From Candidatus Gottesmanbacteria bacterium RBG_16_52_11 (GTDB taxonomy: Bacteria > Patescibacteriota > Microgenomatia > UBA10105 > UBA927), in NCBI GenBank assembly GCA_001779095.1, contig MFJD01000004.1, positions 173,031 through 237,030 of the forward strand: a stretch of 64,000 nt of DNA, read 5' to 3'. Shown here piece by piece: positions 33,444 to 56,315 of the stretch. Each line of letters starts with the position of its first letter. Positions within the stretch are counted from its first letter, which is position 1. The notes below the pieces were generated by a model, which was given only the letters and a program-made list of their open reading frames with translations, was not told the DNA's origin and ran no database searches. Both the position numbers and the translations under genes were made by a program.

Positions 33444-33512
33444 ATTCTGAAAATATTCGTTACTCTAACAGTGTATATGAACCACTATCCAATATGTTCC
33501 GAGGCAGTCAGT

Positions 33513-36774: not shown

Positions 36775-37518
36775 ATGCGTCTTTATAAAGAGGAAAAACA
36801 CGAAGTCATATATCAGACCCAGGTTAATGATCCGTTTTTTAATTACGTAACGGAACTCATGTTTTCCCGGATGACCGGGCCAGGCCGCCTGCTGGATATG
36901 GGTTGCGGCAGCGGACGTAACATCATATTGGCTGCACAAAGGGGATTTGAGGGAGTCGGAATAGATATCAACAGTAAGTCACTTGAGGTTGCCGGGGAAT
37001 ATGCCAAAAGGATGGGCGTTGATAAGAAGACCAGGTTTATCAGGGCAGACCTGAGAAACCTGACATTGCTGGGATTAGGCAAGTTTGATTACGTGATGAT
37101 GCAGGAAGTGATCGAGCATGTCGAGGATTATCAGGCGCTGATCGATCTGTCATACCGGTTGCTTAAGAAAGGCGGCAGACTACTGTTAAGTACGCCGAAC
37201 GATCCGTCTCAGTGGAACCTGCTGGATGAGTATGCTGAACATGTGCGTCGCTTCAGACCGGTGGAGATACGTAGTGCGCTGAAGGAATTTTCCAGGATAG
37301 AAATATTTACTGTTGGGTTTCCCATACAGAGACTGACGATAACCATCTATGATCTGATGCTGAGAATCCTAAAGCGCCAGCATAAAGCCAAACTGTTCCG
37401 CCGCAACGACTTATTCCACGCGTTGTATTTCACTATAGGCGCTGCAGTCATGAATTTCGACGGACTATTTAACGGAATTCACATGGGAACTACTATAGTG
37501 GCGGGTGCGGAGAAGTGA
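36775..37518 (+). CDS. class I SAM-dependent methyltransferase
   Basis: LLDMGCGSGRN (motif I), DYVMMQEVIEHV and LLLSTPN motifs identify the family. Confidence 0.7.
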   Translation: MRLYKEEKHEVIYQTQVNDPFFNYVTELMFSRMTGPGRLLDMGCGSGRNIILAAQRGFEGVGIDINSKSLEVAGEYAKRMGVDKKTRFIRADLRNLTLLGLGKFDYVMMQEVIEHVEDYQALIDLSYRLLKKGGRLLLSTPNDPSQWNLLDEYAEHVRRFRPVEIRSALKEFSRIEIFTVGFPIQRLTITIYDLMLRILKRQHKAKLFRRNDLFHALYFTIGAAVMNFDGLFNGIHMGTTIVAGAEK

Positions 37519-37577
37519 ATCCCGTAAAATACTAATGGTATACTCGATAATTATCGTCCGGTAATAATTTTATTAGA

Positions 37578-38282
37578 ATGACCAGAAATCCCGGCGTCAG
37601 TATTGTCGTCATGGCGTATAACGAGGAACAGAACCTCGGTCCTACTATCGACGGGATCATGCGGGAAGTCCCCAAGGCAACCCGGAATTATGAAATCATA
37701 ATCGTCGAAGACGGCAGCACCGACGGGACGCTTGCAGTGGCAAAACAATATGCCCGGAGAAACCGTCGCATCAGGATAGTCCGGCACCGGATAAATTTCG
37801 GATTCGGAACTTCGTTTAAGGACGGTGTTGCCGCCGCGGAAAAAAAATACGTAATCGGTTTCCCCGGTGATAACGACACGTCACCGGTGTCCCTGAGACA
37901 GATTATCGGGCGCGCAAATGACCGGACAGTCGTTATTTCCTATCCAATCGACTGGAAACAGCGTTCCCTGGCGCGGCACATTATTTCCAGAAGCGTCGTG
38001 ATCCTGTTTAACCTCCTGTTTGGGATGCGACTCCGGTATTATACCGGACAGTTCCTGTGCCGGACTGGCGAACTGCAGAGGATGAATTTAAAGTCCAAAG
38101 GATTTGCCGTATACGCCGAAGCCAAAGTCCGGTTCCGGTATATGGGGATGAAATTTGAAGAAATACCGTTTGAGCATATCGGCCGGAAATTCGGTACCAC
38201 CAAAGCGATATCGTTCAGAAGCCTCTTAGAGACTCTGGAAACGATCGGAATACTCTTAACCGATATTTTTTTCAGAAAGTAA
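37578..38282 (+). CDS. GT2 family glycosyltransferase (DPM1/GtrB-like), paralog of 41787-42539
   Basis: VSIVVMAYNEEQNLGPTIDGIMREVP..IIVEDGSTDGT. About 60% identical to the 41787 gene product. Confidence 0.75.
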   Translation: MTRNPGVSIVVMAYNEEQNLGPTIDGIMREVPKATRNYEIIIVEDGSTDGTLAVAKQYARRNRRIRIVRHRINFGFGTSFKDGVAAAEKKYVIGFPGDNDTSPVSLRQIIGRANDRTVVISYPIDWKQRSLARHIISRSVVILFNLLFGMRLRYYTGQFLCRTGELQRMNLKSKGFAVYAEAKVRFRYMGMKFEEIPFEHIGRKFGTTKAISFRSLLETLETIGILLTDIFFRK

Positions 38283-38373
38283 TTCCTTAATTATTCGAAC
38301 AGACAGATGTGGGATTTCCCGGTAAGAATAGATTATTTTTACTTTAAAGTAGTATAGCTGTTTTTGAGTTGGT

Positions 38374-39579
38374 ATGAAATTATTGCGGACGCTTTTACTA
38401 ACAACAAAAGCTTATGATCCACTGTTGGCTTTACGTGGTTATTCAATTATTCTGATTGTCTGGTGGCACGTCTATTCATATTACCCAGTATATGCTTTTC
38501 ATAATGCCAGCCCTAACTACTGGTTACTATCATCAAGCCCATATGTAGGAGTCTGGACGTTTTTTATACTTTCGGGCTACTTAATCGGAAAGGGTTTTTT
38601 TGCCGGAAGATATACATTATCACCCCGAAATCTAATCCGTTTTTATATACATCGGTTAATGAAGATTGCGCCTTTATACTACCTGACAATAATATATATC
38701 TATTTTGTTCATATAATTCCCTATGGATATACCGAAACCAAACTTGCTCCATTTTTTTTCTTTAATGCAGCCAATCTGATTAATGACAGGTATTTGGGAT
38801 ATCTCTGGTTTGTATCGGTAGTGATTCAGCTTTATATCCTGTCTCCGCTAATCTATCTTGTGAACCGTATGATCCGGTTATTTCGAGTACCTGTATACGT
38901 ACCGTGGTTAATCATATTGGTATATTTTTTACTAATTCCGTTCACCTTTTCCATGCCATATTTACTTCAGAACAGGATGTATTATGATATCACTTTCTAT
39001 TCTTCCGTAGCAGTTAATTTAAGCTTCTTTCTTATCGGATTTTTCATAAATATACTATTTACGAATAAAAACAGTAGTGAGCAACAGGAAAGAATTACAG
39101 GTCGCCCGGCAGTAAAAAAAGTGATGGAAATAGGAGCCAACGTAAGTCTCGTGATACTATATATTATTTCCTCTTATGTTACCGAAAAATTTCTAATCGA
39201 TTATAATTCTAATCTTTTTAATATTATGTTCATTTTGCCTATTTTAACCGTAAGCATAGTCATATATTTCATAGTCACATCAGAGGGTGAAAACCATAAG
39301 AGAAACCGACACAGACAGATACAAGCTAATCACCGGACAATAAATATATTTGAAAAAGTCGGTCAATATTCCTATGGAGTATATTTGATTCACTACCTGG
39401 TTATTTATAGGCTTAAGTATAATTGCCATGCCAACTGTACAATTGCGGATTTACTTTATAAGCAATTACTAGTGTTCGGATGGAGCATGATCATAACAGT
39501 TATTATATACACGATTGCTGGAACTCTGAGAAAACGGATAATCCGAATCAAGCTGAATCCGTTTAAGTATTTACTGTGA
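38374..39579 (+). CDS. acyltransferase family 3 (membrane O-acyltransferase, OafA/WecH-like)
   Basis: LRGYSIILIVWWHV is the acyltransferase-3 N-terminal signature (RG..ILLVV..H). About 10 TM segments. The gene is strongly AT-rich compared with its flanks. Confidence 0.65.
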   Translation: MKLLRTLLLTTKAYDPLLALRGYSIILIVWWHVYSYYPVYAFHNASPNYWLLSSSPYVGVWTFFILSGYLIGKGFFAGRYTLSPRNLIRFYIHRLMKIAPLYYLTIIYIYFVHIIPYGYTETKLAPFFFFNAANLINDRYLGYLWFVSVVIQLYILSPLIYLVNRMIRLFRVPVYVPWLIILVYFLLIPFTFSMPYLLQNRMYYDITFYSSVAVNLSFFLIGFFINILFTNKNSSEQQERITGRPAVKKVMEIGANVSLVILYIISSYVTEKFLIDYNSNLFNIMFILPILTVSIVIYFIVTSEGENHKRNRHRQIQANHRTINIFEKVGQYSYGVYLIHYLVIYRLKYNCHANCTIADLLYKQLLVFGWSMIITVIIYTIAGTLRKRIIRIKLNPFKYLL

Positions 39580-40806: not shown

Positions 40807-41790
40807 ATGAACGTACTGGTTACCGGCGCGGGGGGTTTCATCGGCAGTCACATGGTGGATCACTTACTGGAAAAGGGCCACAGTGTTACCGGCTTGGATA
40901 TATTTTCCCGGGGTAAGGAAGAGCATCTACCGTCGAAACAGTATGGAAACCTGCTCCGGCTGATCCAGGCAGACGTGTCTGACCGCACGGCGCTACGGGA
41001 GAAATATTTCCGGGGCGTCGACTGGGTGTTTCACTTCGCCGGCCGCTCCAGTAACGTCAAGTCGCTCGAGAATCCGCCGGAGTACCATGCCGTCAATGCC
41101 ACCGGTACGCTGAACATGCTGATTGCTGCCCATAAGGCTAAGGTGAAACGGTTCGTCTACGCGGCATCGTATTCGTGTTACGGCCAGCCACGAAAGTTTC
41201 CTACCCCGGAAACGGCGCTACTCAAGCCGGAATTCCCGTATGCCCTGACTAAGCTGGCAGGCGAACGCTATACACTGCACTGGCATCGGGCATTCGGATT
41301 GCCGACGATATCCCTGAGGATGACCAGCGTTTATGGGCCGAAAATCCGGACCGGTGGGAACTTCGGGCCAGTAGTCTCACTTTTTGTCGGGCAGAAAACG
41401 GACAGGAAGCCGTTTACAGTAGCCGGTGACGGCAGCCAGAGCCGGGATTTCGTGTATATCGATGACGTGGTTGAAGCGTTTCTGGCTGCTGCCCGGTCGG
41501 ATGTTGCCGGGGAAGTATTTAACGTCGGCAGCGGCCGGTCAGTCAGCCTCAATCGACTGGTGGAACTGCTAGGCGGTCCGGTGACATATGTCTCCAGAAG
41601 GCCGGGAGAAGTCAATAAAACTCTGGCGGATATAAAGAAAATTAAAAAATATTTGGGGTGGACTCCAAAGGTACGTTTTAACCACGGAATCAGAAGGGTG
41701 CTTGAAAGTGCAGGACAAACGGTGAAGCCCGGATTTAATGTCAGAACAATCCGTCCGTCAACAAACAGGCGGAAAGGCGGACACGTATGA
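40807..41790 (+). CDS. NAD-dependent sugar epimerase/dehydratase
   Basis: LVTGAGGFIGSHMVDHL, YALTK and SVYGPK motifs identify the family. About 55% identical to the 26732 gene product. Confidence 0.8.
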   Translation: MNVLVTGAGGFIGSHMVDHLLEKGHSVTGLDIFSRGKEEHLPSKQYGNLLRLIQADVSDRTALREKYFRGVDWVFHFAGRSSNVKSLENPPEYHAVNATGTLNMLIAAHKAKVKRFVYAASYSCYGQPRKFPTPETALLKPEFPYALTKLAGERYTLHWHRAFGLPTISLRMTSVYGPKIRTGGNFGPVVSLFVGQKTDRKPFTVAGDGSQSRDFVYIDDVVEAFLAAARSDVAGEVFNVGSGRSVSLNRLVELLGGPVTYVSRRPGEVNKTLADIKKIKKYLGWTPKVRFNHGIRRVLESAGQTVKPGFNVRTIRPSTNRRKGGHV

Positions 41791-42571: not shown

Positions 42572-43600
42572 ATGGCTAAAATAAATATGAAAAGGACAGT
42601 GCTGGTAACCGGAGCCGGAGGCTTTATCGGCAGCCATCTGGTCGACAGGCTATACGCCGACGGACATGATGTGACCGGTATCGGTAACTTTGCCGGGGGT
42701 TCCGATGAGCATCTGGCAGGTAAAACCGACCGGTCACGGATCAGATTCATTGAGGCCGATATCACTGACAGCCGGCAGCTGAAGGCTGAATATTTCCACG
42801 GTACCGACTGGGTATTTCATTTGGCAGCGCGTTCGGGGAATGCCAAGTCTTTGGCAGAACCTTTTGCATTCCATGAAACCAATGTCAGCGGAACGGTCAA
42901 TGTACTCGAAGCCGCGCGCAAAGCAAACGTAAAAAAGCTTATTTACGCTGCGTCATCCACCTGCTACGGCAATGCCCGGTGCCCGACGCCGGAAACGGCA
43001 CCGGTTGCACCCGTGTCACCCTACGGACTGACGAAGTTCCTGGGTGAGGAGTACGTCATGCACTGGGGCCAGGTTTTCCGGCTGCCGGTCGTCAGCCTCC
43101 GGCTTTACTACGTTTACGGACCGAAAATCAGGCCCGGCGGTTCATACGGAGCATTAGTAACCATGTTTCTTAACCAGCTCCTGACTGAAGGACATGTGAC
43201 CCTCAGCGGCGACGGAAGTCAGAAACGTGACTTTACGTACGTCGCCGATGCCGTTGACGCCCTGGTAACCGCTGCGCGGTCTTCCATATTCGGGGAAATT
43301 TTCAACGCCGGCAGCGGTCAAGTTTCGGACCTGAAAAAACTTGCCGGTCTGTTAGGCGGCAGGATAGTGCATGCCAAGCCGCTGTCCGGTGAAATAATGT
43401 CAGCCTACCCGGATCTCCATAAAATCAGGAGAATCCTGAAATGGAAACCAAAGACTGATATCATAACCGGAATTGCAATGGTTCTGGCCAGCCGGGATAT
43501 GTGGGAGAAAAATCCCGGTAACGCGCCGGACCGGATGCGTGACAATCTTAAAAATCGTCAGAGGAACAGCAGGATCAGAAGATTAAAAATTAATGTATGA
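42572..43600 (+). CDS. NAD-dependent sugar epimerase/dehydratase
   Basis: LVTGAGGFIGSHLVDRL, YGLTK and YVYGPK motifs identify the family. An alternative ATG at 42587 would begin MKRTVLVTG. Confidence 0.8.
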   Translation: MAKINMKRTVLVTGAGGFIGSHLVDRLYADGHDVTGIGNFAGGSDEHLAGKTDRSRIRFIEADITDSRQLKAEYFHGTDWVFHLAARSGNAKSLAEPFAFHETNVSGTVNVLEAARKANVKKLIYAASSTCYGNARCPTPETAPVAPVSPYGLTKFLGEEYVMHWGQVFRLPVVSLRLYYVYGPKIRPGGSYGALVTMFLNQLLTEGHVTLSGDGSQKRDFTYVADAVDALVTAARSSIFGEIFNAGSGQVSDLKKLAGLLGGRIVHAKPLSGEIMSAYPDLHKIRRILKWKPKTDIITGIAMVLASRDMWEKNPGNAPDRMRDNLKNRQRNSRIRRLKINV

Positions 43601-44320: not shown

Positions 44321-44845
44321 ATGCTAAAAAAATACCCGTCCGCTAAAAGCACGACGTTTTATTTCAACGAAAGCATTATCACCATTGACACCGGTCTGAT
44401 CAGAAGGCTGAAGGATTCATCCCGGAAGGACAAGTTAGGCAGGGCGCGGGTATGCCTCCATTCCGGACCGGATGCAGCGGTACAGGAAATGATCATCGCC
44501 ATGGACCGGAAAACGTATGTCAGGCCGCACCGGCACCACACGAAAACCGAGTCCACACATATTATCGAGGGAGAACTGCTGATAATACTTTTTGACGATA
44601 CCGGTAAACCGGTCCGGCGGATCAGTTTGCGGGCTGGAAAAACGGGGCAACCGTTTGCCTGCCGCATACCGCAGATGACCTGGCATACCCAGATACCTCA
44701 GACCCAAACCGCCGTGATCCACGAAATCATCAGCGGTCCTTTCAGTTCCGGCAGTTCAGATTTTGCTACCTGGGCACCGGAGGAGGGGGATACGGAAGCC
44801 TCAGACCGGTACATCAGAAAAATTAACCGCATAGCCCGCAGATAG
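44321..44845 (+). CDS. cupin-fold protein, WbuC-like (sugar-pathway associated)
   Basis: 174 aa. RVCLHSG...VRPHRHH.TESTHIIEGELLI is a cupin metal-binding His cluster arranged as in the WbuC family. The call is tentative. Confidence 0.45.
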   Translation: MLKKYPSAKSTTFYFNESIITIDTGLIRRLKDSSRKDKLGRARVCLHSGPDAAVQEMIIAMDRKTYVRPHRHHTKTESTHIIEGELLIILFDDTGKPVRRISLRAGKTGQPFACRIPQMTWHTQIPQTQTAVIHEIISGPFSSGSSDFATWAPEEGDTEASDRYIRKINRIARR

Positions 44846-44898: not shown

Positions 44899-46440
44899 AT
44901 GGAAGGGCAGTTATCCAAAATAAAACGCGTCTCAAGTCTGGCAAAGATTACCGCCAGACTGAAGAAAGACGGCAAAAGAATAGTTCTGTGCCACGGGGTT
45001 TTTGACCTCGTACATCCGGGTCATGTCAGGCATTTCGCCTCCGCCCGTAACCACGGTGACGTGCTGATCGTCACCATCACCGCCGATAAGTTCGTCAACA
45101 AAGGGCCCGGCAGGCCGATATTCCGTCAGGAGCTGCGGGCCGAAGTGCTGGCTGCGATTGCCTTCATTGACTACATAGCGATAGTTAACTCCGGTTCGGC
45201 TGTTGACGCTATCCGGAAAATCCGGCCGGATTATTACGTAAAAGGGCCTGATTACCGCAACCGTAAGCCGACACCGTCGGTACCCCGGAAGCTGGGCGAA
45301 GAGGAGAAGGCGGTGCTGTCAGTCGGCGGACAGCTGATATTTACCGATGATGCGGTCATCTACAGCTCGTCCAAAATCATCAGCGATTACCTGGAGGTGT
45401 ATCCTCCCCGGACTAAACGGTTCCTGACGGAAATGAAACGGAAATACACGTCGGAAAAACTGATTGCCGACCTGACAAAACTGAAAAAACTCAAAATTCT
45501 AGTAATCGGGGATGCCATTATCGACCAGTACCATTACTGCCTGCCGATGGGAAAATCATCCAAGGAACCGGTAATGGTGCACCGGTATGTGGCGGACGAG
45601 TCCTACATGGGCGGAGTCCTGGCGACTGTCAACCACCTGTCATCCCTTTCCCGAAACCTGACGCTCCTGACAGTACTCGGGAAGAAAAATTCATTCAGGT
45701 CGTTTATCACCCGTCGTCTGCGTCCCCAGGTCAAGCCGGTCTTTCTTTACCAGTCCAAAGACCCCACCATCATTAAACGCAGGTTCCTCGACTTGAATAA
45801 CCGGCAGAAATTGTTCCAGATCAGCTACCTGCATGAGGATTTCGTGCTGCCGGAGCAAACGGAAAAATTAATCCTGGGGTACCTGAAAAAAGAACTGCCG
45901 AAGTTCGACCTGGTGGTGGTCAACGATTACGGCCACGGCATGATGACACCCAAGACCATCCGCCATATCTGCCGGCACGCCAGATATATCGCATTAAACG
46001 TCCAGACCAACAGCGCTAATTTCGGATTCAATGTCGTCACTAAATACCCGCGGGCTGACTTCGTTTGCATCGATAACCAGGAAATCCGGCTGGCGACCCA
46101 GGACCGTTTCAGCGACCTGACACTGTTGATCCGCTCGATCCAGCGGAAACTGAAATGTTCGTTCATGATCGTCACCAAGGGACCATACGGCGCAGTCGGT
46201 TATTCCCAGCAGGCGGGATTCGTCGAGGTGCCGGCGCTAACCGACCGGATCGTGGACCGGGTCGGAGCCGGGGACGCGCTGTTTGCCATTGCCTCACCCT
46301 GCGTTTACGCCGGCATGCCGCCGGACGTGGTGACTTTTATGGGTAACGTAGCCGGCGCTCTCAAAGTCCAGGTCATCGGCAACAAAAAGCAGATCGAGTT
46401 TGTGGACCTGGCAAAATATATCACCAGATTACTAAAATAA
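44899..46440 (+). CDS. bifunctional sugar-phosphate nucleotidyltransferase (cytidylyl/adenylyltransferase-like, HxGH) + pfkB-family sugar kinase; HldE-like with reversed domain order
   Basis: The N-terminal part (IVLCHGVFDLVHPGHVRHFASARNHGDVLIVTITAD) resembles TagD / RfaE domain II. The C-terminal 300 aa form a ribokinase-like domain with VDRVGAGDALFA (the DTxGAGD anion hole). Neighbouring genes fit a nucleotide-heptose pathway. Confidence 0.7.
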   Translation: MEGQLSKIKRVSSLAKITARLKKDGKRIVLCHGVFDLVHPGHVRHFASARNHGDVLIVTITADKFVNKGPGRPIFRQELRAEVLAAIAFIDYIAIVNSGSAVDAIRKIRPDYYVKGPDYRNRKPTPSVPRKLGEEEKAVLSVGGQLIFTDDAVIYSSSKIISDYLEVYPPRTKRFLTEMKRKYTSEKLIADLTKLKKLKILVIGDAIIDQYHYCLPMGKSSKEPVMVHRYVADESYMGGVLATVNHLSSLSRNLTLLTVLGKKNSFRSFITRRLRPQVKPVFLYQSKDPTIIKRRFLDLNNRQKLFQISYLHEDFVLPEQTEKLILGYLKKELPKFDLVVVNDYGHGMMTPKTIRHICRHARYIALNVQTNSANFGFNVVTKYPRADFVCIDNQEIRLATQDRFSDLTLLIRSIQRKLKCSFMIVTKGPYGAVGYSQQAGFVEVPALTDRIVDRVGAGDALFAIASPCVYAGMPPDVVTFMGNVAGALKVQVIGNKKQIEFVDLAKYITRLLK

Positions 46441-46509: not shown

Positions 46510-47565
46510 ATGACAGACTCAGGGAAAAAGGTATCAAGAGAGGGATCCATAAAGACGGTCCTGGTGACCGGCGGCGGAGGATATGTCGGGGCTGTATTGG
46601 TGCCGAAACTGCTGGCCGCAGGGTACCGGGTGAGAGTGCTTGACTGGTTTATTTACGGTGAAGACGTCTTTGGTAAATACGGTAAGGATCCGAAACTGAC
46701 TATACTCCGGGGAGACTTACGGGACCGGAAATCAGTGGAAAAAGCTCTGAAAGGCGCCGATGCCGTCATCCATCTGGCATGTATATCCAATGATCCCAGT
46801 TTCGAACTCGATCCGGCTCTTGGCAGGACAGTGAATTACGATGCGACCGCACTTCTCACCGACTTGTCCTGCGACGAAGGTGTAACGCGTTTCGTTTTTG
46901 CCTCCTCATCGAGCGTCTACGGGGTCAAAACCGAATCCGACGTCACCGAGGACCTGCCGCTTAAACCGCTCACCGATTACTCTAAATACAAGGCGCTCTC
47001 GGAGGAATACATATTAAAAAAAGGCAGCCGGGATTTTACCGTGCTGATCCTGCGGCCGGCTACGGTCTGCGGCTATTCCCCGCGGATGCGGCTGGATCTG
47101 ACCGTGAATATCCTGACCATCAATGCCCTGATTAACAACCGGATAACGGTATTCGGCGGCTCGCAGCTGCGGCCCAACATCCACATCGGCGACATGACCG
47201 ACCTCTACGTCAAAACCATGGAGTTCCCCGGGGAAAAAATTGCCGGAAAGATTTATAATGCCGGTTACGAGAACATGAAGGTATTGGATATTGCGCGCAT
47301 GGTCAAAAAAGTCCTGGGAAAAAGGGATATAGAAATATCCGTCAAACCGACGGACGACCTGCGGTCCTACCACATCAATTCGGACAAAATCAGGCGGGAG
47401 CTGGGATTTGCCCCCCGGCACACCATCCGGGAAGCCATATCCGATATTAAAAGCGCCTACGAATCGGGAAAGCTGCCGGACCCCACGACGGATATCAGAT
47501 ATGTAAACATCAAAACCATGAAAGCCCTGTCCGGAAAGCTTGCGGGTAAATCCGGGTATGCCTAA
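46510..47565 (+). CDS. NAD-dependent sugar-nucleotide epimerase (candidate heptose 6-epimerase role)
   Basis: VLVTGGGGYVGAVLVPKL and YSKYK (YxxxK) motifs identify the family. 351 aa. Located between the HldE-like and GmhA-like genes. Confidence 0.75.
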   Translation: MTDSGKKVSREGSIKTVLVTGGGGYVGAVLVPKLLAAGYRVRVLDWFIYGEDVFGKYGKDPKLTILRGDLRDRKSVEKALKGADAVIHLACISNDPSFELDPALGRTVNYDATALLTDLSCDEGVTRFVFASSSSVYGVKTESDVTEDLPLKPLTDYSKYKALSEEYILKKGSRDFTVLILRPATVCGYSPRMRLDLTVNILTINALINNRITVFGGSQLRPNIHIGDMTDLYVKTMEFPGEKIAGKIYNAGYENMKVLDIARMVKKVLGKRDIEISVKPTDDLRSYHINSDKIRRELGFAPRHTIREAISDIKSAYESGKLPDPTTDIRYVNIKTMKALSGKLAGKSGYA

Positions 47566-48238
47566 AACCAAAGCAGCCAATACGATATCCCCTGTCAACC
47601 AAATACTCGAAGATCATATCTCCTCCTACATCATGGAACTGATCCGCTGCCTGGTGATGCTGGATAAAATAAAGATAGGGGAGGCAGTCGGAATCCTGAC
47701 CCAGGCTTACCGGGACGGGAAAAAGGTCTTCATCATCGGTAACGGCGGCAGCGCTTCCAACGCTTCGCATATGTCCTGCGATCTGAGCAAAGGCACGCTG
47801 TCGCGGATTTACGATGACAGCGAACCCCGGTTCAAAGCCTATTCACTGACTGATAACGTCGCCATCATGACTGCATTCGGCAATGACCTGAGTTACGAGG
47901 ATATTTTCGTCCAGCAGCTGCGAAACCTGGTGGAAAGCGGGGACGTGGTTATAGCGCTGTCAGGCAGCGGGAACAGTCCGAACGTGATAAAAGCCGTCCT
48001 GTATGCCAGGAAGTGTCAGGCAAAAACAATCGGATTCTTAGGGTTTAAGACCGGGGGGAAACTGGCTGCCATCGTAGACTGCGCCGTCATTGCTGACAGC
48101 AACAAGTACGGCCAGTGTGAGGACATACAGCTGATACTGGACCATATCCTGACGTCCTGGCTGGCCATCGTGAAAGCAGAGCACGATAACGGGAATAAGG
48201 GGAGACGTAAAGCGGGAAGGCCCCGAAAGACGGGTTAA
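47540..48238 (+). CDS. gmhA: SIS-domain sedoheptulose-7-phosphate isomerase (GmhA-like)
   Basis: KKVFIIGNGGSASNASHMSCDL and VVIALSGSGNSPNVIKAV are the GmhA-type SIS motifs. The start is uncertain: in-frame Met codons lie at 47558 and 47633, and the track start overlaps the upstream gene by 26 nt. Confidence 0.7.
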   Translation: MRVNPGMPKTKAANTISPVNQILEDHISSYIMELIRCLVMLDKIKIGEAVGILTQAYRDGKKVFIIGNGGSASNASHMSCDLSKGTLSRIYDDSEPRFKAYSLTDNVAIMTAFGNDLSYEDIFVQQLRNLVESGDVVIALSGSGNSPNVIKAVLYARKCQAKTIGFLGFKTGGKLAAIVDCAVIADSNKYGQCEDIQLILDHILTSWLAIVKAEHDNGNKGRRKAGRPRKTG

Positions 48239-48239
48239 A

Positions 48240-49301
48240 CTAATTTACTTCAGGACGGCGGGCAAAGGCGGTGCCGGCCGGCGTGTCAGAATCCCCGTTG
48301 ATCCGGAAATTTTCCGGCTGTTTGGCGGAGTATCCGGACTCCAGAAGCGATTTGGCACCGAAGGCTTTCACCAGTGTTCCGGTCACCCTGCCTTCGGCAT
48401 CACTAACTGAGAAAGTATCACCCCGGTTGTTCCTGACCCCTTCCAGGTAAATATAGGTGTTGTTTTCGATATATTTAACAACTTCATTCCAGTTGTCAAA
48501 GACCCTGGCTGCTCCGGATTCCGTCAGTGTCTTTACCATCAGTTCAGTTGGCTTGTTTCCTTCTCCGACAACGGCAGGCACGGCAAAAACCGTTGCACCG
48601 GCTGCGACTGCAGCCTTAACTCCGGTCGGCGAGTCTTCGAAAACCAGAAGCCCTGAAGGGGAGATATTCATCTCTTTTGCCGCCAGCTGATAGACGTCCG
48701 GCGAAGGTTTGCCGTGTTTGACGTCATGCCTAAGAAGGACCGGATTACCGTACAGCATCTCCCGCAGTCCCGAACGGTCAATAATGATGCCGGCCTGGGT
48801 GCTCCTGGTCACCGAACAGATGGTGTACGGCACTCCGAGCTGGGAGACCATCTGGATCAGTCTGGCGGAACCTTCGCGCGGCCGGAAAACGGCCTCACTG
48901 AACATCCCGTCGAATATCGCATCCTTAAGTTCGATCATCTTCCCGACATTCCAGGCTTTGAGCAGATCTCCGGAACCGGGATTTTTCCGGGCAAGTTCAA
49001 GCAGTTGCTCCATAACCGCGGTATCGGGACCGCCGACAAATGACGGAACCTGCCGCATGATTTCGTCCACCGAATCGGGAAGAGTAATTCCCAAAGCTCC
49101 GGCTACTTCCCGGTGCGCCCGGTGATGAAGTGATTCAAGATCCACCAGGGTGCCTTCCAGGTCCAGTGCCACACCGGAGAATATTTTCAGCGTATCCTCG
49201 GCTTCTGGTTTAAGTATCAGGGCGCCATGCATATAATAAACTAGATTGTTAATTATAGGATTAAAGTTACCTTTCGTCAATTTCAGACTACCTAAGCTCA
49301 A
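48240..49301 (-). CDS. HAD-superfamily hydrolase (subfamily IA, phosphatase/beta-PGM-like) with about 100-aa C-terminal extension
   Basis: VALDLEGTLVD (motif I DxDGT), SVTRS (motif II), KPSPDVY (motif III) and FEDSPTGVKAAVAAG (motif IV). A candidate heptose-bisphosphate phosphatase by context. Confidence 0.65.
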   Translation of the reverse strand: MSLGSLKLTKGNFNPIINNLVYYMHGALILKPEAEDTLKIFSGVALDLEGTLVDLESLHHRAHREVAGALGITLPDSVDEIMRQVPSFVGGPDTAVMEQLLELARKNPGSGDLLKAWNVGKMIELKDAIFDGMFSEAVFRPREGSARLIQMVSQLGVPYTICSVTRSTQAGIIIDRSGLREMLYGNPVLLRHDVKHGKPSPDVYQLAAKEMNISPSGLLVFEDSPTGVKAAVAAGATVFAVPAVVGEGNKPTELMVKTLTESGAARVFDNWNEVVKYIENNTYIYLEGVRNNRGDTFSVSDAEGRVTGTLVKAFGAKSLLESGYSAKQPENFRINGDSDTPAGTAFARRPEVN

Positions 49302-49349: not shown

Positions 49350-49952
49350 ATGGAAACCGTCATCGGCATTGACCTTGATAATACGATAATCAGTTTTGAC
49401 CGCATTCTCCATGCCAGCGCATCGGAACTGGGGCTGGTCGGCCGGGGGATACCGGTCCGCAAGGATGCGGTGAAGCAGGCCATACTTGAGCGCCACGGAG
49501 ACCGGGTGTGGCACCATATCCAGAAAATTGCCTACGGCCTCAGGATGGAGGAAGCCCGACTTATCCGGGGAGCGGTGCCATTCATCAGCGAATGTCTCAG
49601 AAGTGGTATCAGGGTATATATAATCAGCCATAAAGCTGAATTAGTGGAGGTGAACGGAGTCAGAATTAATCTGAGGAATAAAGCTATGCAGTTTTTAAAG
49701 AAAAGGTTCATAATAGGGTCTGAAACTGATCGGCTTAATGAACAGAATATCTTTTTCGAGCCGACACGGGCCGACAAGCTGGCACGGATTGCCAAACTCA
49801 GGTGTACGCATTTCATCGATGACCTGGAAGATGTTTTTCGCGAAGACGGATTCCCGGAAACCGTCACAAAAATCCTGCTCGGCCATACGACTGATAGTTC
49901 CTGGATGACCTGTCCGACATGGGGAAAAGTAAGTCAATACTTTTTCGGGTGA
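49350..49952 (+). CDS. small HAD-like phosphatase (tentative)
   Basis: N-terminal IGIDLDNTII (DxDxT motif I) in a 200-aa protein. The other HAD motifs were not clearly resolved. Confidence 0.4.
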   Translation: METVIGIDLDNTIISFDRILHASASELGLVGRGIPVRKDAVKQAILERHGDRVWHHIQKIAYGLRMEEARLIRGAVPFISECLRSGIRVYIISHKAELVEVNGVRINLRNKAMQFLKKRFIIGSETDRLNEQNIFFEPTRADKLARIAKLRCTHFIDDLEDVFREDGFPETVTKILLGHTTDSSWMTCPTWGKVSQYFFG

Positions 49953-49956: not shown

Positions 49957-50946
49957 ATGAAGGCAGCATTAGAAGATATTGTGAGCAGGATATTGGGGAC
50001 AACCGGCTTATCCCTAAGACCGGGTCCGGCCGGATTCAACAGTACAATTTATATATCGGATACGGATTCCGGACGGTACCTGGTCAAGGTGTATAAGCGA
50101 AGACCCCGGGACCATCGGAACCGGCTGGAAACGGAATTCCGGAGCCTCAAGTACCTCTGGGCGCAGGGTTTGCGGCAAGTGCCGGAACCGGTGGGACGAA
50201 ACCAAAGCCGGGCAATCGGAATATACCGGCATATGACCGGAGTACGCCCAGAGACAAAAACAATCGCTGATTTCGATCAGGCAGTCCGGTTCCTGCGGCA
50301 GCTTAGGTCATTAAGCCGCAAGACCTCTTCTGAGAGGTTCAGCCGGGCCTCGGAAGCGTGTTTCTCGCTTTCCGAATACCTGGATGCGGTACGCCGACGG
50401 TATGCCCGACTGGTGCGGGTAGCCGATACCCGACTGCAGAAGTTTCTCAGGGACGGGTTTCTGCCGTATTTCCGGGAGACTGCCGATTATGCAGCCGGAG
50501 AATATGCCCGGGCCGGACTGACACGGTTTACCCGTCTGCCCCGTAAAGCCAGGACTTTAAGCCCTTCCGACTTCGGATTCCACAATGCGCTCAAAGATGA
50601 CCGGGGACGGATTATTTTCCTGGATTTTGAGTATTTCGGCTGGGATGATCCGGCCAAACTTATTTCGGATTTCCTGCTCCATCCGGCAATGGAACTGGCC
50701 CAGGTGGAGCAGCGCTATTTCTTCCATAAGGCATACCCCCTTTACAAAAATGCGGATCTCCGGGCCCGCCTGCCGTCTGTATACCGGATTTGCGCTCTGA
50801 AATGGTGTATGATCATGCTCAATGCGTTTCTCCGGAAGGAAGACGCCGGGGTCCAGAGCCGGCAACTGACTAAAGCCAAGTCAATGCTGTCACGGATTGC
50901 CGCGGAAGTCCGGACCGGAAATTTGCCCTTCAGCGGCGAATTATGA
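49957..50946 (+). CDS. APH/choline-kinase-like phosphotransferase
   Basis: GFHNALKDDRGRIIFLDFEYFGWDDPAKLISDF carries the catalytic loop and the D[FW]E..(6)D motif of the family. 4-nt overlap with the downstream gene. Confidence 0.6.
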   Translation: MKAALEDIVSRILGTTGLSLRPGPAGFNSTIYISDTDSGRYLVKVYKRRPRDHRNRLETEFRSLKYLWAQGLRQVPEPVGRNQSRAIGIYRHMTGVRPETKTIADFDQAVRFLRQLRSLSRKTSSERFSRASEACFSLSEYLDAVRRRYARLVRVADTRLQKFLRDGFLPYFRETADYAAGEYARAGLTRFTRLPRKARTLSPSDFGFHNALKDDRGRIIFLDFEYFGWDDPAKLISDFLLHPAMELAQVEQRYFFHKAYPLYKNADLRARLPSVYRICALKWCMIMLNAFLRKEDAGVQSRQLTKAKSMLSRIAAEVRTGNLPFSGEL

Positions 50947-51788
50947 GGAATAATTACCGTAAATCCATTCCGCTTGACCGGCGCTCGCTGGCGCTGCGGA
51001 AACTGATCCTGTCCGCATATACCTCAGCCCGGCGGGGACACCTGGGCAGTTATTTGTCGCTGGTTGAGATCCTCAGAGTGCTGTATGACTCGGTTCTCAG
51101 GTACGATCCGCGCAAACCCGACTGGCCCGGGCGTGACAGGTTTATCCTGAGCAAAGGCCATGGGTCAGTGGCCCTCTATGCCATACTTGCCGATAAGGGA
51201 TTTTTCTCTCCGGAACTGCTGCCTACATTCGTGAAATTTGACAGCATGTTCGGTCAGCATCCGGACAGCCGCAAAGTCCCGGGAGTCGAGGCTTGTACCG
51301 GATCGCTGGGGCATGGGTTGTCAGTCGGGGTGGGGATGGCGCTTTCTGCCCGAATCGACAAACAGAAGCACCGGGTCTTCGTAGTCATTAGTGACGCTGA
51401 GAGCCAGGAGGGTTCGGTCTGGGAAGCGGCGCTTTCCATTGCCAAGCATAACCTGACAAATCTGGTGGTAATTGTTGACTATAACCACATGCAGAGCTAC
51501 GGGCGGACGCGGGAAGTGCTTGATTTGGAGCCGCTGGCTGCCAAATGGAAAAGCTTCGGATTTGGCGTAGAACAGGTGAACGGGCATGACGTAAAAAAGC
51601 TCAGGCAGTCATTTCTGAAAGCAGTGAATAAACCCAGCCGGCCACAGGTAGTCATCTGCCATACGGTCAAGGGCAAGGGGATTGCGGGGATAGAAAATAA
51701 CGTGTCCTGGCACCACAAAACAAAACTCAGTGATGAGGATGTGGAAATGTTATACGCGAATCTAAGACAACGGGGGTCAGAGAATTAA
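50943..51788 (+). CDS. transketolase, N-terminal subunit (second copy)
   Basis: DRFILSKGHGSVALYA and GSLGHGLSVGVGMAL..VVISDAESQEGSVWEAAL identify the subunit. About 55% identical to the 20078 gene product and lacks its insertion. Confidence 0.8.
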   Translation: MRNNYRKSIPLDRRSLALRKLILSAYTSARRGHLGSYLSLVEILRVLYDSVLRYDPRKPDWPGRDRFILSKGHGSVALYAILADKGFFSPELLPTFVKFDSMFGQHPDSRKVPGVEACTGSLGHGLSVGVGMALSARIDKQKHRVFVVISDAESQEGSVWEAALSIAKHNLTNLVVIVDYNHMQSYGRTREVLDLEPLAAKWKSFGFGVEQVNGHDVKKLRQSFLKAVNKPSRPQVVICHTVKGKGIAGIENNVSWHHKTKLSDEDVEMLYANLRQRGSEN

Positions 51789-51820
51789 GCGCTGGTGAAA
51801 ATGTTTAGTATGCCGTTAAT

Positions 51821-51848
51821 TCAAAACTCAAAAATCAAAAGTCAAAAC
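51821..51848. repeat. heptanucleotide tandem repeat (TCAAAAN)4 in the transketolase N/C intergenic spacer
   Basis: tcaaaac tcaaaaa tcaaaag tcaaaac. Shares the 14-mer ATCAAAAGTCAAAA with the 14486-14540 repeat. Confidence 0.6.
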
Positions 51849-51934
51849 TACAACGTAAAATTCAAGACCGGAAAACGATAAAGAAATTTTCCATTGCATG
51901 CAGCTTAAATCATAATAACCGGAACCGTAATCAT

Positions 51935-52957
51935 ATGAGAAAGACCAGCCTGGAACAGGTTTATCTGTTAGCTAAAAAAGACAAACGGGTGGTATTCGTG
52001 GGATCGGACCTGGGACACGGGACACTCGATAAGTTCAAAGCCGAAATGCCGGACCGGTTCTTCATGGAAGGAGTGTCGGAGCAGCATCTTACGGGCATGC
52101 TGGCCGGAATGGCGTTATCGGGCAAAGTGCCGTACTTCAATACCATCGCCGTGTTTGCCTACCGGCGGTGCCTGGAGCAGGTGATACTCGACGTAGCCAT
52201 CCCGAACCTGCCGGTCAGGATCATCGCCTCGGGTGGCGGATTCGTCTACGTGCCGCTGGGACCGACCCACCTGGCGACAGATGACCTGGCGATACTCCGG
52301 ACCGTACCCAACATGACGGTTATCGCTCCGGCTGATGCAGCGGAGATGGCACGGCTGATGCCTCTGACACTCAACTGGCCCGGGCCGATATATATCAGGC
52401 TCGCCAAAGGCGGGGATCCCGTAGTCACCCCGGCCGACGTACCCTTCAGAATCGGCAAAGCCGTGCCGGTAGCTACCGGCTCGGACTTACTGATCATTAC
52501 CACCGGCATCACCCTGCAGTTTGCACTTGTTGCCCGGAAAATGCTGGCTGCTGAGGGGATTAAAGCCGGAGTTCTCCATGTCCCGACCGTCAAGCCGCTG
52601 GACCAAGACGGGATTCTGTCGCGGATCGCCAAAGTCCGGGGTGTAGTCACTATTGAGGAGGGAGTCCGGCTTGGGGGGTTGGGCAGCGCCATCGGGGAGC
52701 TGATGCTTGACGAGGGACTCGTGCGGCCGCTGACGCGGATCGGACTTCCGGACGAATTCACCCTCCACTACGGTACACAACTGGAGCAGTTGGCATATTA
52801 CGGCATATCCGGGGATGGGATAGTCCGGGCAGCCCGGAAGCTCCTGGGTGGTCGGGTCAGGACGCGGACGCTGGCTCACGCAGCGCGTCGTAAACTCTTA
52901 AGAGTCCGTCCTCAACCCTCAACACAGGTACAACGGGGTACAAGTCGTCGGGCGTAA
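51935..52957 (+). CDS. transketolase, C-terminal subunit (second copy)
   Basis: FFMEGVSEQHLTGMLAGMAL and GPTHLATDDLAILRTVPNM identify the subunit. The last 40 aa are a basic tail that overlaps the convergent gene at 52857-53657 by about 100 nt. Confidence 0.8.
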   Translation: MRKTSLEQVYLLAKKDKRVVFVGSDLGHGTLDKFKAEMPDRFFMEGVSEQHLTGMLAGMALSGKVPYFNTIAVFAYRRCLEQVILDVAIPNLPVRIIASGGGFVYVPLGPTHLATDDLAILRTVPNMTVIAPADAAEMARLMPLTLNWPGPIYIRLAKGGDPVVTPADVPFRIGKAVPVATGSDLLIITTGITLQFALVARKMLAAEGIKAGVLHVPTVKPLDQDGILSRIAKVRGVVTIEEGVRLGGLGSAIGELMLDEGLVRPLTRIGLPDEFTLHYGTQLEQLAYYGISGDGIVRAARKLLGGRVRTRTLAHAARRKLLRVRPQPSTQVQRGTSRRA

Positions 52958-55652: not shown

Positions 55653-56315
55653 ATGGGTAAGCTGCTTCGGATCATTACCCCACTACATAAACGGACAACC
55701 CGGGACTATATCGGCCGGATGACGGACAACAAGGTCGAGGCCATGGGAGTGGCCAAAAAGTACGGCCGGGATTACTGGGACGGGGACAGGCGGTACGGTT
55801 ACGGCGGATACCGCTACGACGGGAGATGGGAAAAAGTCGCCCGGAAACTGATCCGTACCTACAAACTGAAAAAGAATGCCAGGATTCTCGATGTCGGCTG
55901 CGGCAAGGCGTTCCTTCTCTATGAACTCAAGAAACTGCTGCCCCAATCCACTATCGTGGGCATGGATATTTCCCGCTGGGGGCTGTCACACGCTCCGAAG
56001 GAAATCCGGAAATACTTACGGGTCCACCGGGCAGAGGATACATACCCATTTAAGGACTGGGAGTTCGATCTGGTAATTTCCATCACTACGCTCCACAATC
56101 TGACCATCGACAAACTGGCTGCGGCATTGGGCGAAATCGAGCGGGTGGGAAAACACAAGTATATTGCGGTCGAGAGCTATAGGAACGACCCGGAGCAGTT
56201 CAATTTACAGTGCTGGGCGCTCACCTGCGCTGCCTTTTTCAGCAAAAGGGAATGGGTCTGGCTCTACCGGCATTTCGGGTATACCGGGGATTACGAGTTT
56301 ATTTATTTTGAGTAA
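55653..56315 (+). CDS. class I SAM-dependent methyltransferase
   Basis: [12 protein letters not shown] (motif I) and [12 protein letters not shown] motifs identify the family. Confidence 0.7.

What the first reader, a model, noticed from the sequence alone, without database searches (positions are those of the whole stretch)
44899..46440. HldE-like bifunctional enzyme with reversed domain order (nucleotidyltransferase N-terminal, kinase C-terminal)
Canonical bacterial HldE/RfaE has the pfkB kinase first and the HxGH nucleotidyltransferase second. Here the HxGH domain (FDLVHPGHVRHF...) occupies residues about 1-150 and the GAGD-anion-hole ribokinase-like domain occupies the C-terminal about 300 aa. 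This suggests an independent fusion event, or an archaeal-type or novel architecture with possibly different nucleotide specificity.
Basis: seen in the sequence. Interest (0 to 1): 0.55.

Follow-up and report, generated by a model that had tools for sequence, protein, structure and literature searches.

The report
Reversed-order HldE-like sugar-activating enzyme
This gene encodes a two-part enzyme related to the bacterial ADP-heptose synthase HldE but with its halves in the opposite order; it belongs to a large, uncharacterised family that marks a conserved, horizontally spread gene cassette for making an unidentified activated sugar for cell-surface glycans.

Summary
ORF 44899-46440 (+, 513 aa) has a PF01467 nucleotidyltransferase at residues ~17-162 and a pfkB kinase at ~193-505, the reverse of HldE. 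Both halves match the HldE domain models best, and the kinase fold is closest to HldA, but all scores lie far below NCBI's equivalog cut-offs. Catalytic motifs (HxGH, GAGD) are intact; several motifs proposed to bind heptose-1-P and the nucleotide are replaced by family-specific ones. It is not a one-off: 1,322 cluster representatives reach E<=1e-30 and the best 150 share the order. Members occur in CPR, many bacterial phyla, archaeal MAGs and cultured Bradyrhizobium, Azospirillum, Paramagnetospirillum and Solidesulfovibrio. In per-domain trees the family forms its own clade beside canonical HldE (kinase half 200/200; NT half with its derived stand-alone NTs 159/200), suggesting one old origin and later horizontal spread. 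It sits in a recurring cassette: SDRs, a GmhA-like isomerase, a new HAD phosphatase, an APH-like kinase and a transketolase-like pair lacking sugar-phosphate-binding residues. Rare fusions to a GmhB-type phosphatase and a GmhA-like isomerase support a heptose-type relay. Sugar and nucleotide are undetermined. Verdict: new variant of a known kind, moderate interest.

The parts
44899..46440 (+). NT-kinase gene (513 aa), reversed-order HldE-like bifunctional enzyme
   Evidence: ORF; domains; 100% identical to a Ca. Gottesmanbacteria RBG_16_52_11 protein
44947..45384 (+). N-terminal nucleotidyltransferase domain (residues 17-162); HxGH at 45013-45024; C-terminal YSSS motif
   Evidence: rfaE_dom_II 105.8 bits; best PDB sequence match HldC 5x9q; motif frequencies
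45385..45474 (+). Conserved helical linker (residues 163-192, YPPxTKxYL...)
   Evidence: Family alignment; AF2 helices 170-182 and 185-197
45475..46413 (+). C-terminal pfkB kinase domain (residues 193-505); GAGD catalytic motif at 46264-46275
   Evidence: rfaE_dom_I 118.6 bits; top 7 Foldseek hits are all HldA; GAGD Asp present in 205/205 members
46510..47565 (+). Cassette SDR ('downstream type'), 52-58% identical across phyla
   Evidence: Pfam Epimerase; found immediately downstream of the NT-kinase in 29/49 loci; not HldD (TIGR02197 64.5 bits, cut-off 274.6)
47540..48238 (+). GmhA-like SIS isomerase (true start possibly the ATG at about 47633)
   Evidence: SIS_2; gmhA model 100.8 bits, cut-off 209; GmhA scaffold kept but E65D, Q172E, D169G; present in 33/49 loci
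49350..49952 (+). About 200-aa HAD-superfamily protein, candidate sugar-phosphate phosphatase
   Evidence: No Pfam or NCBIfam hit; all four HAD motifs invariant; weak PDB profile hits to HAD phosphatases; present in 23/49 loci
49957..50946 (+). APH-like small-molecule kinase
   Evidence: Pfam APH 42 bits; present in 24/49 loci and never without the transketolase-like pair
50943..51788 (+). Transketolase-like N-terminal (ThDP-binding) subunit
   Evidence: Transketolase_N 152 bits; cofactor and catalytic residues conserved
51935..52957 (+). Transketolase-like C-terminal subunit with a remodelled acceptor/phosphate pocket
   Evidence: E. coli TktA H461->G, D469->L (N in one), R520->K/T/A in all 16 cassette sequences aligned; the genuine split TK 6yaj keeps His and Asp
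40807..41790 (+). Cassette SDR ('upstream type'), about 50% identical across phyla
   Evidence: directly upstream of the NT-kinase in 28/49 loci; in this window separated from it by four genes
42572..43600 (+). Third SDR epimerase/dehydratase-family gene
44321..44845 (+). WbuC-family cupin
   Evidence: TIGR04366 130 bits, above the cut-off of 42; present in 19/49 loci
55653..56315 (+). Cassette class-I SAM methyltransferase
   Evidence: 31/49 loci, 38-62% identity

Best explanation
The gene encodes an active bifunctional enzyme of the HldE type with its two halves swapped. The C-terminal pfkB domain phosphorylates the anomeric hydroxyl of a heptose-type sugar phosphate, which a GmhA-like SIS isomerase makes from a ketose phosphate. 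A HAD phosphatase removes the distal phosphate. The N-terminal HxGH domain then couples the sugar-1-phosphate to an NTP to give an NDP-sugar. This NDP-sugar is the entry point of a conserved, horizontally mobile cassette (SDRs, a transketolase-like ThDP enzyme, methyltransferase, cupin, often radical-SAM enzymes and aminotransferases). The cassette tailors it into an unidentified sugar for a surface glycan. Shown: architecture, intact catalytic motifs, closest relatives, family size and spread, cassette linkage, the fusions. Inferred: the substrates, the reaction order, the nucleotide used and the fate of the product.
For: Both halves match the HldE domain models far better than any other curated family: 118.6 vs <=25 bits for the kinase and 105.8 vs 40 bits for the NT. 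The seven best Foldseek hits for the AF2 model (pLDDT 85) are all HldA, about 6 orders of magnitude ahead of other ribokinase-family members. HxGH is intact in 201/205 members and the GAGD Asp in 205/205. A GmhA-like SIS gene lies in 33/49 well-flanked loci, within 2.5 kb in 27. Fusions: P0177 = NT + kinase + GmhA-like SIS. P0122 = GmhB-type HAD-IIIA + NT + kinase (143 bits to the heptose-1,7-bisphosphate phosphatase model; above the TIGR01656 cut-off). Where the fused NT has lost HxGH (L027, L061), an intact stand-alone NT derived from the family sits directly upstream, so both activities are required together. The window and 22 other well-flanked loci encode a HAD protein with all four phosphatase motifs. 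Contexts are glycan islands with GT2/GT4, PMT_2 and pse genes.
Against: All three HldE models score far below their equivalog cut-offs (161/521, 118.6/345, 105.8/181.5). Motifs proposed (by docking; PMC7993394) to bind heptose-1-P are changed to family-specific residues: TNG->CHG, NSD->TxD, ExTP->xxSA, KGG->KGP. The nucleotide motif (F/L)XXGXSTT is not present. The partner SIS has E65D and Q172E at catalytic/metal positions. A GmhB-type phosphatase is near the gene in only 6 of 88 loci, and none is in this window. No GT9 heptosyltransferase is in any locus, and no SDR reaches the HldD cut-off. 12 of 49 loci have the transketolase-like pair but no SIS gene within reach. No biochemical data exist for any member, as far as the searchable literature shows.
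Confidence: 0.6

Rival explanations
1. Same chemistry, different sugar. The transketolase-like pair, the APH-like kinase and the new HAD protein form an upstream module that builds and phosphorylates an unusual ketose, for example a deoxy or longer-chain one. The variant SIS isomerises it, and the NT-kinase activates the resulting non-standard aldose. [quoted passage not shown]
For: HAD-like, APH, TK-N and TK-C form a contiguous block in 23/49 loci, and APH never occurs without the TK pair (24 vs 0). The TK-like enzyme keeps its ThDP and catalytic residues but lacks the His/Asp/Arg that bind sugar phosphate and the acceptor C2-OH, unlike the genuine split TK 6yaj. SIS, kinase and NT all carry systematic family-specific active-site changes and sub-threshold scores. 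No GT9 or HldD is present.
Against: Some loci have the NT-kinase with SIS but no TK (6/49), or with neither (4/49), so the enzyme can work without that module. In some loci an E1-alpha-like subunit replaces TK-N, which fits a tailoring two-carbon transfer onto a keto-sugar better than precursor supply. The GmhB-type fusion points to a standard heptose bisphosphate intermediate.
Confidence: 0.2
2. Phosphatase-independent salvage-type activation. The kinase phosphorylates the anomeric position of a free, non-phosphorylated sugar, and the NT uses that same phosphate directly, as E. coli HldE does with mannose and as FKP-type fucokinase/pyrophosphorylases do.
For: [quoted passage not shown] A GmhB-type phosphatase is rare near the gene. 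16/49 well-flanked loci have no SIS gene nearby.
Against: A HAD phosphatase and a SIS isomerase are fused to family members. SIS is adjacent in most loci. A dedicated HAD protein is in about half of the cassettes.
Confidence: 0.1
3. The NT half is a cytidylyltransferase acting on a terminal (non-anomeric) phosphate, as in TagD, ECT or the CDP-6-fructose/CDP-glucitol route. It would make a CDP-alditol or CDP-ketose that the adjacent SDR then reduces.
For: By pairwise sequence comparison the NT half is almost as close to human ethanolamine-phosphate cytidylyltransferase (56.5 bits) as to HldC (58.3 bits). A highly conserved SDR directly follows the gene in 29/49 loci. A precedent exists for CDP-6-D-fructose followed by an SDR reductase (PMC10918830).
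Against: Profile scores clearly favour rfaE_dom_II (105.8) over g3p_cytidyltrns (40). In the NT tree the family groups with HldE/HldC and away from TagD/ECT in 164/200 bootstraps. The C. jejuni enzyme belongs to a different family, PF01128. The fused kinase is HldA-like, i.e. an anomeric kinase.
Confidence: 0.05
4. One half is catalytically dead, so the protein works as a mono-functional enzyme or a scaffold.
For: Four of 205 members have lost the HxGH histidines.
Against: The window protein has every catalytic motif, and 201/205 members keep HxGH and 205/205 keep GAGD. Where HxGH is lost, a replacement NT gene is adjacent, which shows selection for the activity.
Confidence: 0.03

Closest known systems
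[quoted passage not shown]
   Same: It has the same two domain families. Both are the best-matching curated models. It has the same catalytic motifs, HxGH and GAGD. It shares the association with a GmhA-like isomerase and a HAD phosphatase.
   Different: The domain order is reversed. Identity is about 21% in the kinase half and about 34% in the NT half. Scores are far below the equivalog cut-offs. Different residues occupy the proposed sugar- and nucleotide-binding motifs. There is a conserved helical linker of about 30 residues and a 9-residue insertion after KGPDY. No GT9 or HldD partners are present.
Separate HldA (kinase) and HldC (nucleotidyltransferase) of Burkholderia (PDB 4e84, 5x9q)
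   Same: They are the closest solved structures or sequences for each half.
   Different: They are encoded as two proteins. HldC has TNG/NSD/ExTP/KGG/FEHDRSTT, where this family has CHG/TxD/xxSA/KGP/D..(F/Y)SSS (PMC7993394).
The three published types of heptose nucleotidyltransferase-containing enzymes: NT alone, kinase/NT, isomerase/kinase/NT (Tang et al. 2024, as summarised in PMC11573728 and PMC11461863)
   Same: It uses the same four-activity relay logic. Fused tri-domain relatives also exist in this family (P0122, P0177).
   Different: The NT-to-kinase order, and the tri-domain orders HAD-NT-kinase and NT-kinase-SIS, are not among the types listed in those summaries. The hallmark (F/L)XXGXSTT motif is absent. 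The primary paper could not be read.
Higher-carbon and branched NDP-sugar pathways that combine a C-C bond-forming enzyme with GmhA/kinase/phosphatase/NT-type steps. Examples recalled from my own knowledge and not checked here: the lincomycin octose pathway LmbR/N/P/K/O, and ThDP-dependent two-carbon branching by YerE or AviB1/AviB2.
   Same: A ThDP-dependent enzyme pair (TK-like, or E1-alpha-like plus TK-C) sits in one cassette with isomerase, kinase, phosphatase and NT functions and sugar-tailoring SDRs.
   Different: No sequence-level membership was tested. The enzyme families differ (pfkB + PF01467 here). The product is unknown.

Membership tests
HldE equivalog (NCBIfam NF008454; domain models TIGR02198 and TIGR02199) | Score at or above the curated equivalog cut-offs | tested here: not met
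   NF008454 161.1 vs 521; TIGR02198 118.6 vs 345; TIGR02199 105.8 vs 181.5
HldE equivalog | Domain order: kinase N-terminal, nucleotidyltransferase C-terminal | tested here: not met
   NT at 17-162 and kinase at 193-505. E. coli, Azospirillum, Streptomyces, Roseibium and Gemmobacter HldE are kinase-first: their N- and C-terminal parts align as kinase and NT
HldE equivalog | Catalytic motifs of both halves (HxGH and the C-terminal S-x-x motif; GAGD catalytic Asp and anion hole) | tested here: met
   HPGH at 39-42, YSSS at 155-158, GAGD at 456-459; conserved in 201/205 and 205/205 members
HldE equivalog | Heptose-1-P and nucleotide-binding motifs of HldC-type enzymes: TNG, NSD, ExTP, KGG, (F/L)XXGXSTT | tested here: not met
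   CHG, TxD, xxSA, KGP and D-x-(I/V)-x-(F/Y)-SSS instead, each conserved within the family. The motif roles come from docking in PMC7993394 and from PMC11573728
HldE equivalog | Kinase fold closest to heptose-7-P kinase | tested here: met
   Foldseek top 7 hits are all HldA, E about 7e-20, target TM 0.76-0.81
HldE equivalog | Works with GmhA isomerase and GmhB phosphatase | tested here: inconclusive
   GmhA-like SIS is in 33/49 loci and fused in P0177, but has E65D/Q172E and sub-threshold scores. GmhB-type HAD is fused in P0122 but is near the gene in only 6/88 loci and absent from this window, where a different HAD protein is present
HldE equivalog | Product consumed by GT9 heptosyltransferases and epimerised by HldD | tested here: not met
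   No WaaC/WaaF/GT9 homologue in 88 loci or the 64-kb window. The window's SDRs score 64-109 bits against the HldD model, cut-off 274.6. These genes could lie elsewhere in the genomes
HldE equivalog | Enzymatic conversion of heptose-7-P to the 1,7-bisphosphate, and of heptose-1-P plus ATP to ADP-heptose | not testable with these tools
   Requires biochemistry
Ribokinase/pfkB superfamily and PF01467 cytidylyltransferase-like superfamily | Pfam gathering thresholds | tested here: met
   PF00294 46.5 bits (cut-off 25.8); PF01467 52.4 bits (cut-off 21)
Glycerol-3-phosphate cytidylyltransferase (TagD, TIGR01518) | Equivalog score and phylogenetic placement | tested here: not met
   40 bits vs cut-off 165.4. 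TagD and ECT are separated from the family plus HldE/HldC in 164/200 bootstraps
Transketolase (for the cassette partner 50943-52957) | ThDP/catalytic residues plus sugar-phosphate and acceptor-binding residues (E. coli TktA R358, S385, H461, D469, R520) | tested here: not met
   Cofactor and catalytic residues are kept. H461->G, D469->L (N in one), R520->K/T/A and S385 is variable in all 16 cassette sequences aligned. R358 and H261 fall in the unaligned junction between the subunits. The genuine split TK 6yaj keeps H and D

The most novel reading that the evidence does not exclude
The reversed-order NT-kinase is the signature enzyme of a widespread, horizontally mobile pathway that makes a so far undescribed nucleotide-activated sugar. 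It would start with HldE-like activation of a heptose-type (or TK-derived) sugar. ThDP-dependent two-carbon transfer by a transketolase-like enzyme that no longer binds sugar phosphates would follow, plus SDR, methyl and radical-SAM tailoring. The result would be a higher-carbon or branched sugar on the surfaces of CPR bacteria, many other phyla and some archaea, possibly carried on a nucleotide other than ADP.
Probability: 0.35. Interest if true: 0.75.

Novelty: new variant of a known kind. Interest (0 to 1): 0.5.

Why it matters
ADP-, CDP- and UDP-heptoses are building blocks of bacterial glycans and potent agonists of the vertebrate innate immune sensor ALPK1. Current descriptions recognise three enzyme architectures for making them. 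A fourth, large family with reversed order and altered substrate motifs, present from CPR bacteria to rhizobia, would widen the set of organisms that may make such sugars. It also marks a conserved cassette, including an unusual transketolase-like enzyme, whose product is unknown. Cultured carriers exist (Azospirillum oryzae KACC 14407, Solidesulfovibrio carbinolicus DSM 3852, Paramagnetospirillum caucaseum SO-1, several Bradyrhizobium strains), so the question can be tested directly. On the practical side, databases now name these proteins inconsistently ('hypothetical', 'PfkB family carbohydrate kinase', 'rfaE bifunctional protein', 'cytidyltransferase'), and a dedicated family model would fix that.

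Tried and rejected
1. Ordinary transketolase supplying sedoheptulose-7-P. This is weakened because the cassette enzyme lacks the His/Asp/Arg substrate residues that E. coli TktA and the genuine split TK 6yaj keep.

2. The second TK-C gene in the window (23298-24248) as an internal housekeeping control. It failed, because it is also non-canonical and has no N-terminal-half partner.

3. Link to bradyrhizose biosynthesis in Bradyrhizobium. The only relevant paper describes a different cluster and mentions no kinase or transketolase, so the lead was dropped.

4. The C. jejuni CDP-6-fructose/CDP-glucitol enzyme as a relative. It belongs to a different NT family, PF01128, so it serves only as a conceptual rival.

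5. My greedy ORF caller mis-called antisense shadow ORFs in high-GC loci ('cluster 16'). I replaced it with tblastn censuses.

6. The first tree script timed out. The second gave NaN distances and an artefactual caterpillar-shaped kinase tree. Only one search is used.

7. Profile searches of the HAD-like and APH-like partners against the PDB gave only weak superfamily-level hits.

8. The primary Tang et al. 2024 paper could not be read, so whether it lists any reversed-order proteins is unknown.

9. Four literature searches found no description of the architecture.
Full report
**Observation**

The window contains an ORF at exactly 44899..46440 (+, 513 aa, ATG start).
- Pfam places a cytidylyltransferase-like domain (PF01467) at residues 31-161 and a pfkB kinase domain (PF00294) at 199-494.
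- NCBIfam places rfaE_dom_II (heptose-1-phosphate adenylyltransferase) at 17-162 (105.8 bits) and rfaE_dom_I (heptose-7-phosphate kinase) at 193-505 (118.6 bits).
- E. coli HldE, fetched as a reference, is annotated as a fused heptose-7-phosphate kinase/heptose-1-phosphate adenylyltransferase. Its kinase is N-terminal and its NT C-terminal (sequence).

The protein is 100% identical to a deposited 'hypothetical protein' of Candidatus Gottesmanbacteria bacterium RBG_16_52_11, a CPR/Patescibacteria genome.

**Relation to HldE**

Both halves are more similar to the HldE domains than to any other curated family.
- The next-best kinase models score 25 bits or less, and the TagD model scores 40 bits.
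- The closest solved proteins by sequence are Burkholderia HldC (5x9q) and HldA (4e84).
- An AlphaFold2 model (pLDDT 85.3, pTM 0.75) finds HldA as its seven best PDB matches. These have E about 7e-20 and target TM 0.76-0.81, against about 3e-14 for the next ribokinase-family members.

All three HldE models nevertheless score far below NCBI's equivalog cut-offs: 161/521, 118.6/345 and 105.8/181.5.

I aligned 205 family members with a permuted E. coli HldE.
- The catalytic cores are intact. HxGH is present in 201/205 members, the GAGD Asp in 205/205, and the GG, TxGxxG and GN elements are kept.
- The motifs proposed to contact heptose-1-phosphate in HldC (TNG, NSD, ExTP, KGG; from docking in PMC7993394) are replaced by family-specific residues: CHG (93/98/100%), TxD, xxSA and KGP.
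- The hallmark nucleotide motif (F/L)XXGXSTT (PMC11573728) reads D-x-(I/V)-x-(F/Y)-S-S-S.
- The kinase half has DxGHG for DYAKG and N-(S/A)-(A/G)-N for DPKG.

So this works like an HldE but is not a member of the HldE equivalog family.

**Size, spread and origin of the family**

- In a library of 1.84 billion representatives at 50% identity, 1,322 proteins reach E<=1e-30. The best 150 are all collinear with the query (identity 33-62%). Most are full-length single-stretch matches; the rest are truncated or match in two pieces.
- A scan of one genome per species returned 80 full-length loci. They come from Omnitrophota, Planctomycetota, Elusimicrobia, Chloroflexota, Verrucomicrobiota, Desulfobacterota, Nitrospirales, Bdellovibrionota and Saccharibacteria. 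A few archaeal MAGs and cultured Alphaproteobacteria are included: several Bradyrhizobium species, Paramagnetospirillum caucaseum and Terasakiella.
- Annotated plasmid copies exist in Azospirillum oryzae KACC 14407 and Solidesulfovibrio carbinolicus DSM 3852, named only 'PfkB family carbohydrate kinase'.

I built neighbour-joining trees with bootstrap, using five canonical K-to-N HldE proteins, HldA/HldC and outgroups (the earlier one search had a numerical artefact and is discarded).
- Kinase half: the family forms one clade in 200/200 replicates. Together with HldE/HldA it separates from RbsK/PfkB in 166/200.
- NT half: canonical HldE/HldC form a clade in 198/200. The family plus stand-alone NTs forms another in 159/200, and non-outgroup sequences separate from TagD/ECT in 164/200.
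- Archaeal, CPR and proteobacterial members are interleaved.

This fits a single old origin of the reversed architecture, followed by horizontal spread. It cannot distinguish a de novo fusion from a permutation of an HldE ancestor. The trees are simple distance trees with few canonical sequences.

**Genomic context**

The gene is the most constant element of a recurring cassette. In 49 loci with at least 6 kb on both sides, translated searches gave the counts below.

| Neighbour family | Loci (of 49) |
|---|---|
| SDR epimerase/dehydratase-family genes | 42 |
| Transketolase C-terminal-half gene | 39 |
| Transketolase N-terminal-half gene | 33 |
| GmhA-like SIS | 33 |
| About 220-aa methyltransferase | 31 |
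| APH-like kinase | 24 |
| About 200-aa protein with no family assignment | 23 |
| WbuC cupin | 19 |
| E. coli-type GmhB | 4 |

- The order is conserved from this CPR genome to Bradyrhizobium, Paramagnetospirillum, Terasakiella, Planctomycetales, Nitrospirales and Dehalococcoidia. It runs SDR, NT-kinase, SDR, HAD-like, APH, TK-N, TK-C, then methyltransferase and cupin.
- Linkage is tight. One SDR type is immediately downstream in 29/49 loci and another immediately upstream in 28/49. SIS lies within 2.5 kb in 27/49. The HAD-like/APH/TK-N/TK-C genes form one block in 23/49, and APH never occurs without the TK pair.
- Surrounding genes are glycosyltransferases (GT2, GT4), PMT_2-type enzymes, aminotransferases, radical-SAM enzymes and, in S. 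carbinolicus, a pseudaminic-acid-type island.

**The partners are also non-standard**

- SIS protein. It keeps the GmhA scaffold (GNGGS, H61, D94, S119/S121/S124, H180). It has E65D in 50/51, Q172E in 43/51 and mostly D169G. It scores 100.8 against a cut-off of 209.
- About 200-aa protein. It has all four HAD phosphatase motifs as invariant columns, so a phosphatase candidate exists although it is not GmhB.
- Transketolase-like pair. It keeps every ThDP and catalytic residue examined. The E. coli TktA positions H461, D469 and R520 have become G, L (N in one sequence) and K/T/A in all 16 cassette sequences aligned, and S385 is variable. The characterised split transketolase of Carboxydothermus (6yaj) retains the His and Asp. 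In some loci an E1-alpha-like subunit replaces TK-N. I infer that this enzyme is not an ordinary sedoheptulose-7-phosphate-forming transketolase. More likely it transfers a two-carbon unit to a non-phosphorylated acceptor such as an oxidised NDP-sugar. This step is inference.
- Classical ADP-heptose partners. No GT9 heptosyltransferase is present in any of 88 loci or in the window. None of the window's SDRs approaches the HldD cut-off.

**Evidence on mechanism**

Two rare fusion proteins tie the family to the other activities of the heptose relay.
- P0177 is NT + kinase + GmhA-like SIS.
- P0122 is a GmhB-type HAD-IIIA phosphatase + NT + kinase. Its HAD domain scores 143 bits to the heptose-1,7-bisphosphate 7-phosphatase model and is above the TIGR01656 cut-off.

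In loci L027 and L061 the fused NT domain has lost HxGH (HPGI; L061 has also lost CHG). In both, an intact stand-alone NT about 160 aa long lies directly upstream. That NT nests inside the family in the tree. This shows that NT activity is selected for together with the kinase.

The most likely mechanism is therefore the HldE relay in a new arrangement:
1. A GmhA-like isomerase makes an aldose phosphate.
2. The C-terminal kinase phosphorylates the anomeric position.
3. A HAD phosphatase removes the distal phosphate.
4. The N-terminal domain forms the NDP-sugar, which the cassette then tailors.

I put this at about 0.6. Which sugar and which nucleotide are used is not determined.

**Rivals**

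- (a) Same chemistry on an unusual sugar built by the TK-like/APH/HAD module: about 0.2.
- (b) Phosphatase-independent activation of a free sugar, as E. coli HldE does with mannose (PMC10948575): about 0.1.
- (c) Cytidylyl transfer to a terminal phosphate, as in TagD/ECT or the CDP-6-fructose route (PMC10918830; a different NT family): about 0.05.
- (d) A dead domain: about 0.03.

**Comparison with what is known, and novelty**

The accessible summaries of Tang et al. 2024 list three enzyme types: NT alone, kinase/NT and isomerase/kinase/NT. The NT-to-kinase order is not among them. The primary paper could not be read, and four literature searches found no description of this family. Databases already hold thousands of members under inconsistent automatic names, so the architecture has been seen but not characterised.

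I rate it a new variant of a known kind. Interest is moderate (0.5). The swap itself is a modest curiosity. The altered substrate motifs, the wide phylogenetic spread including CPR bacteria that lack LPS (my own knowledge), and the conserved cassette with a remodelled transketolase make it a good, directly testable target for finding a new activated sugar.

Noticed in passing
window 50943-51788 and 51935-52957: Split transketolase-like enzyme that keeps its ThDP and catalytic residues. At the E. coli TktA positions H461, D469 and R520 it has G, L and K, unlike the genuine split transketolase 6yaj. It is conserved in the cassette across phyla, and its substrate is unknown.
   Followed up: partly
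window 23298-24248: A second transketolase C-terminal-half paralogue, also non-canonical (His->G, Asp->A in 'GIGAGFAYTKAGPTHH'). It has no N-terminal-half gene next to it and sits beside a 753-aa protein with no Pfam match.
   Followed up: partly
window 49350-49952 and 49957-50946: A pair of genes with no specific family assignment: an about 200-aa protein with all four HAD phosphatase motifs, and an APH-like kinase. They are adjacent in 22/49 related loci, and the kinase never occurs without the transketolase-like pair.
   Followed up: partly
window 47540-48238: GmhA-like SIS isomerase with systematic changes at catalytic/metal positions (E65D, Q172E, D169G), shared by about 50 cassette homologues. 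The listed TTG start overlaps the preceding SDR gene, so the real start may be the ATG near 47633.
   Followed up: partly
L027:10004-12027 and L061:806-2808: NT-kinase genes whose NT domain has lost the HxGH histidines (HPGI). Each is preceded by a stand-alone 160-aa NT paralogue with intact motifs, a natural case of domain decay with replacement.
   Followed up: yes
proteins P0122 (699 aa) and P0177 (764 aa): Tri-domain relatives: GmhB-type HAD + NT + kinase, and NT + kinase + GmhA-like SIS. These domain orders are not among the architectures listed in the published summaries.
   Followed up: partly
L001:8883-9959: A 358-aa protein directly upstream of the NT-kinase has a PF01467 domain, and its C-terminal part gives a weak match to a GmhB-type HAD (23% identity, E 1.7e-5). 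It may be an NT + phosphatase fusion.
   Followed up: no
window about 30851-39579: Low-GC stretch (0.39-0.46 against about 0.52 elsewhere). It holds five consecutive minus-strand ORFs (30851-36678) with no Pfam match, followed by a methyltransferase, a GT2 and an acyltransferase-3 gene. This may be a laterally acquired, variable part of the glycan island.
   Followed up: no
window 25425-26729, 58291-59757, 61635-62879: Three PMT_2-type (GT-C, ArnT/PMT-like) membrane glycosyltransferase genes flank the cassette, together with further SDRs, GT2s and at least six methyltransferases. The whole 25-64 kb region looks like one surface-glycosylation island.
   Followed up: no
window 48240-49301 (minus strand): Beta-phosphoglucomutase-like HAD-IA hydrolase with a C-terminal extension of about 100 residues, inserted on the opposite strand inside the cassette. 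It was found in none of the other 86 related loci searched.
   Followed up: no
L095:3826-4308 (P. aeruginosa plasmid NZ_CP147627.1): Stand-alone 160-aa NT, 44% identical to the NT half of the window protein. It lies in a different sugar-type cluster (aminotransferases, GNAT, SDR, GH65, MFS) with no pfkB kinase, and branches at the base of the family in the first distance tree.
   Followed up: partly
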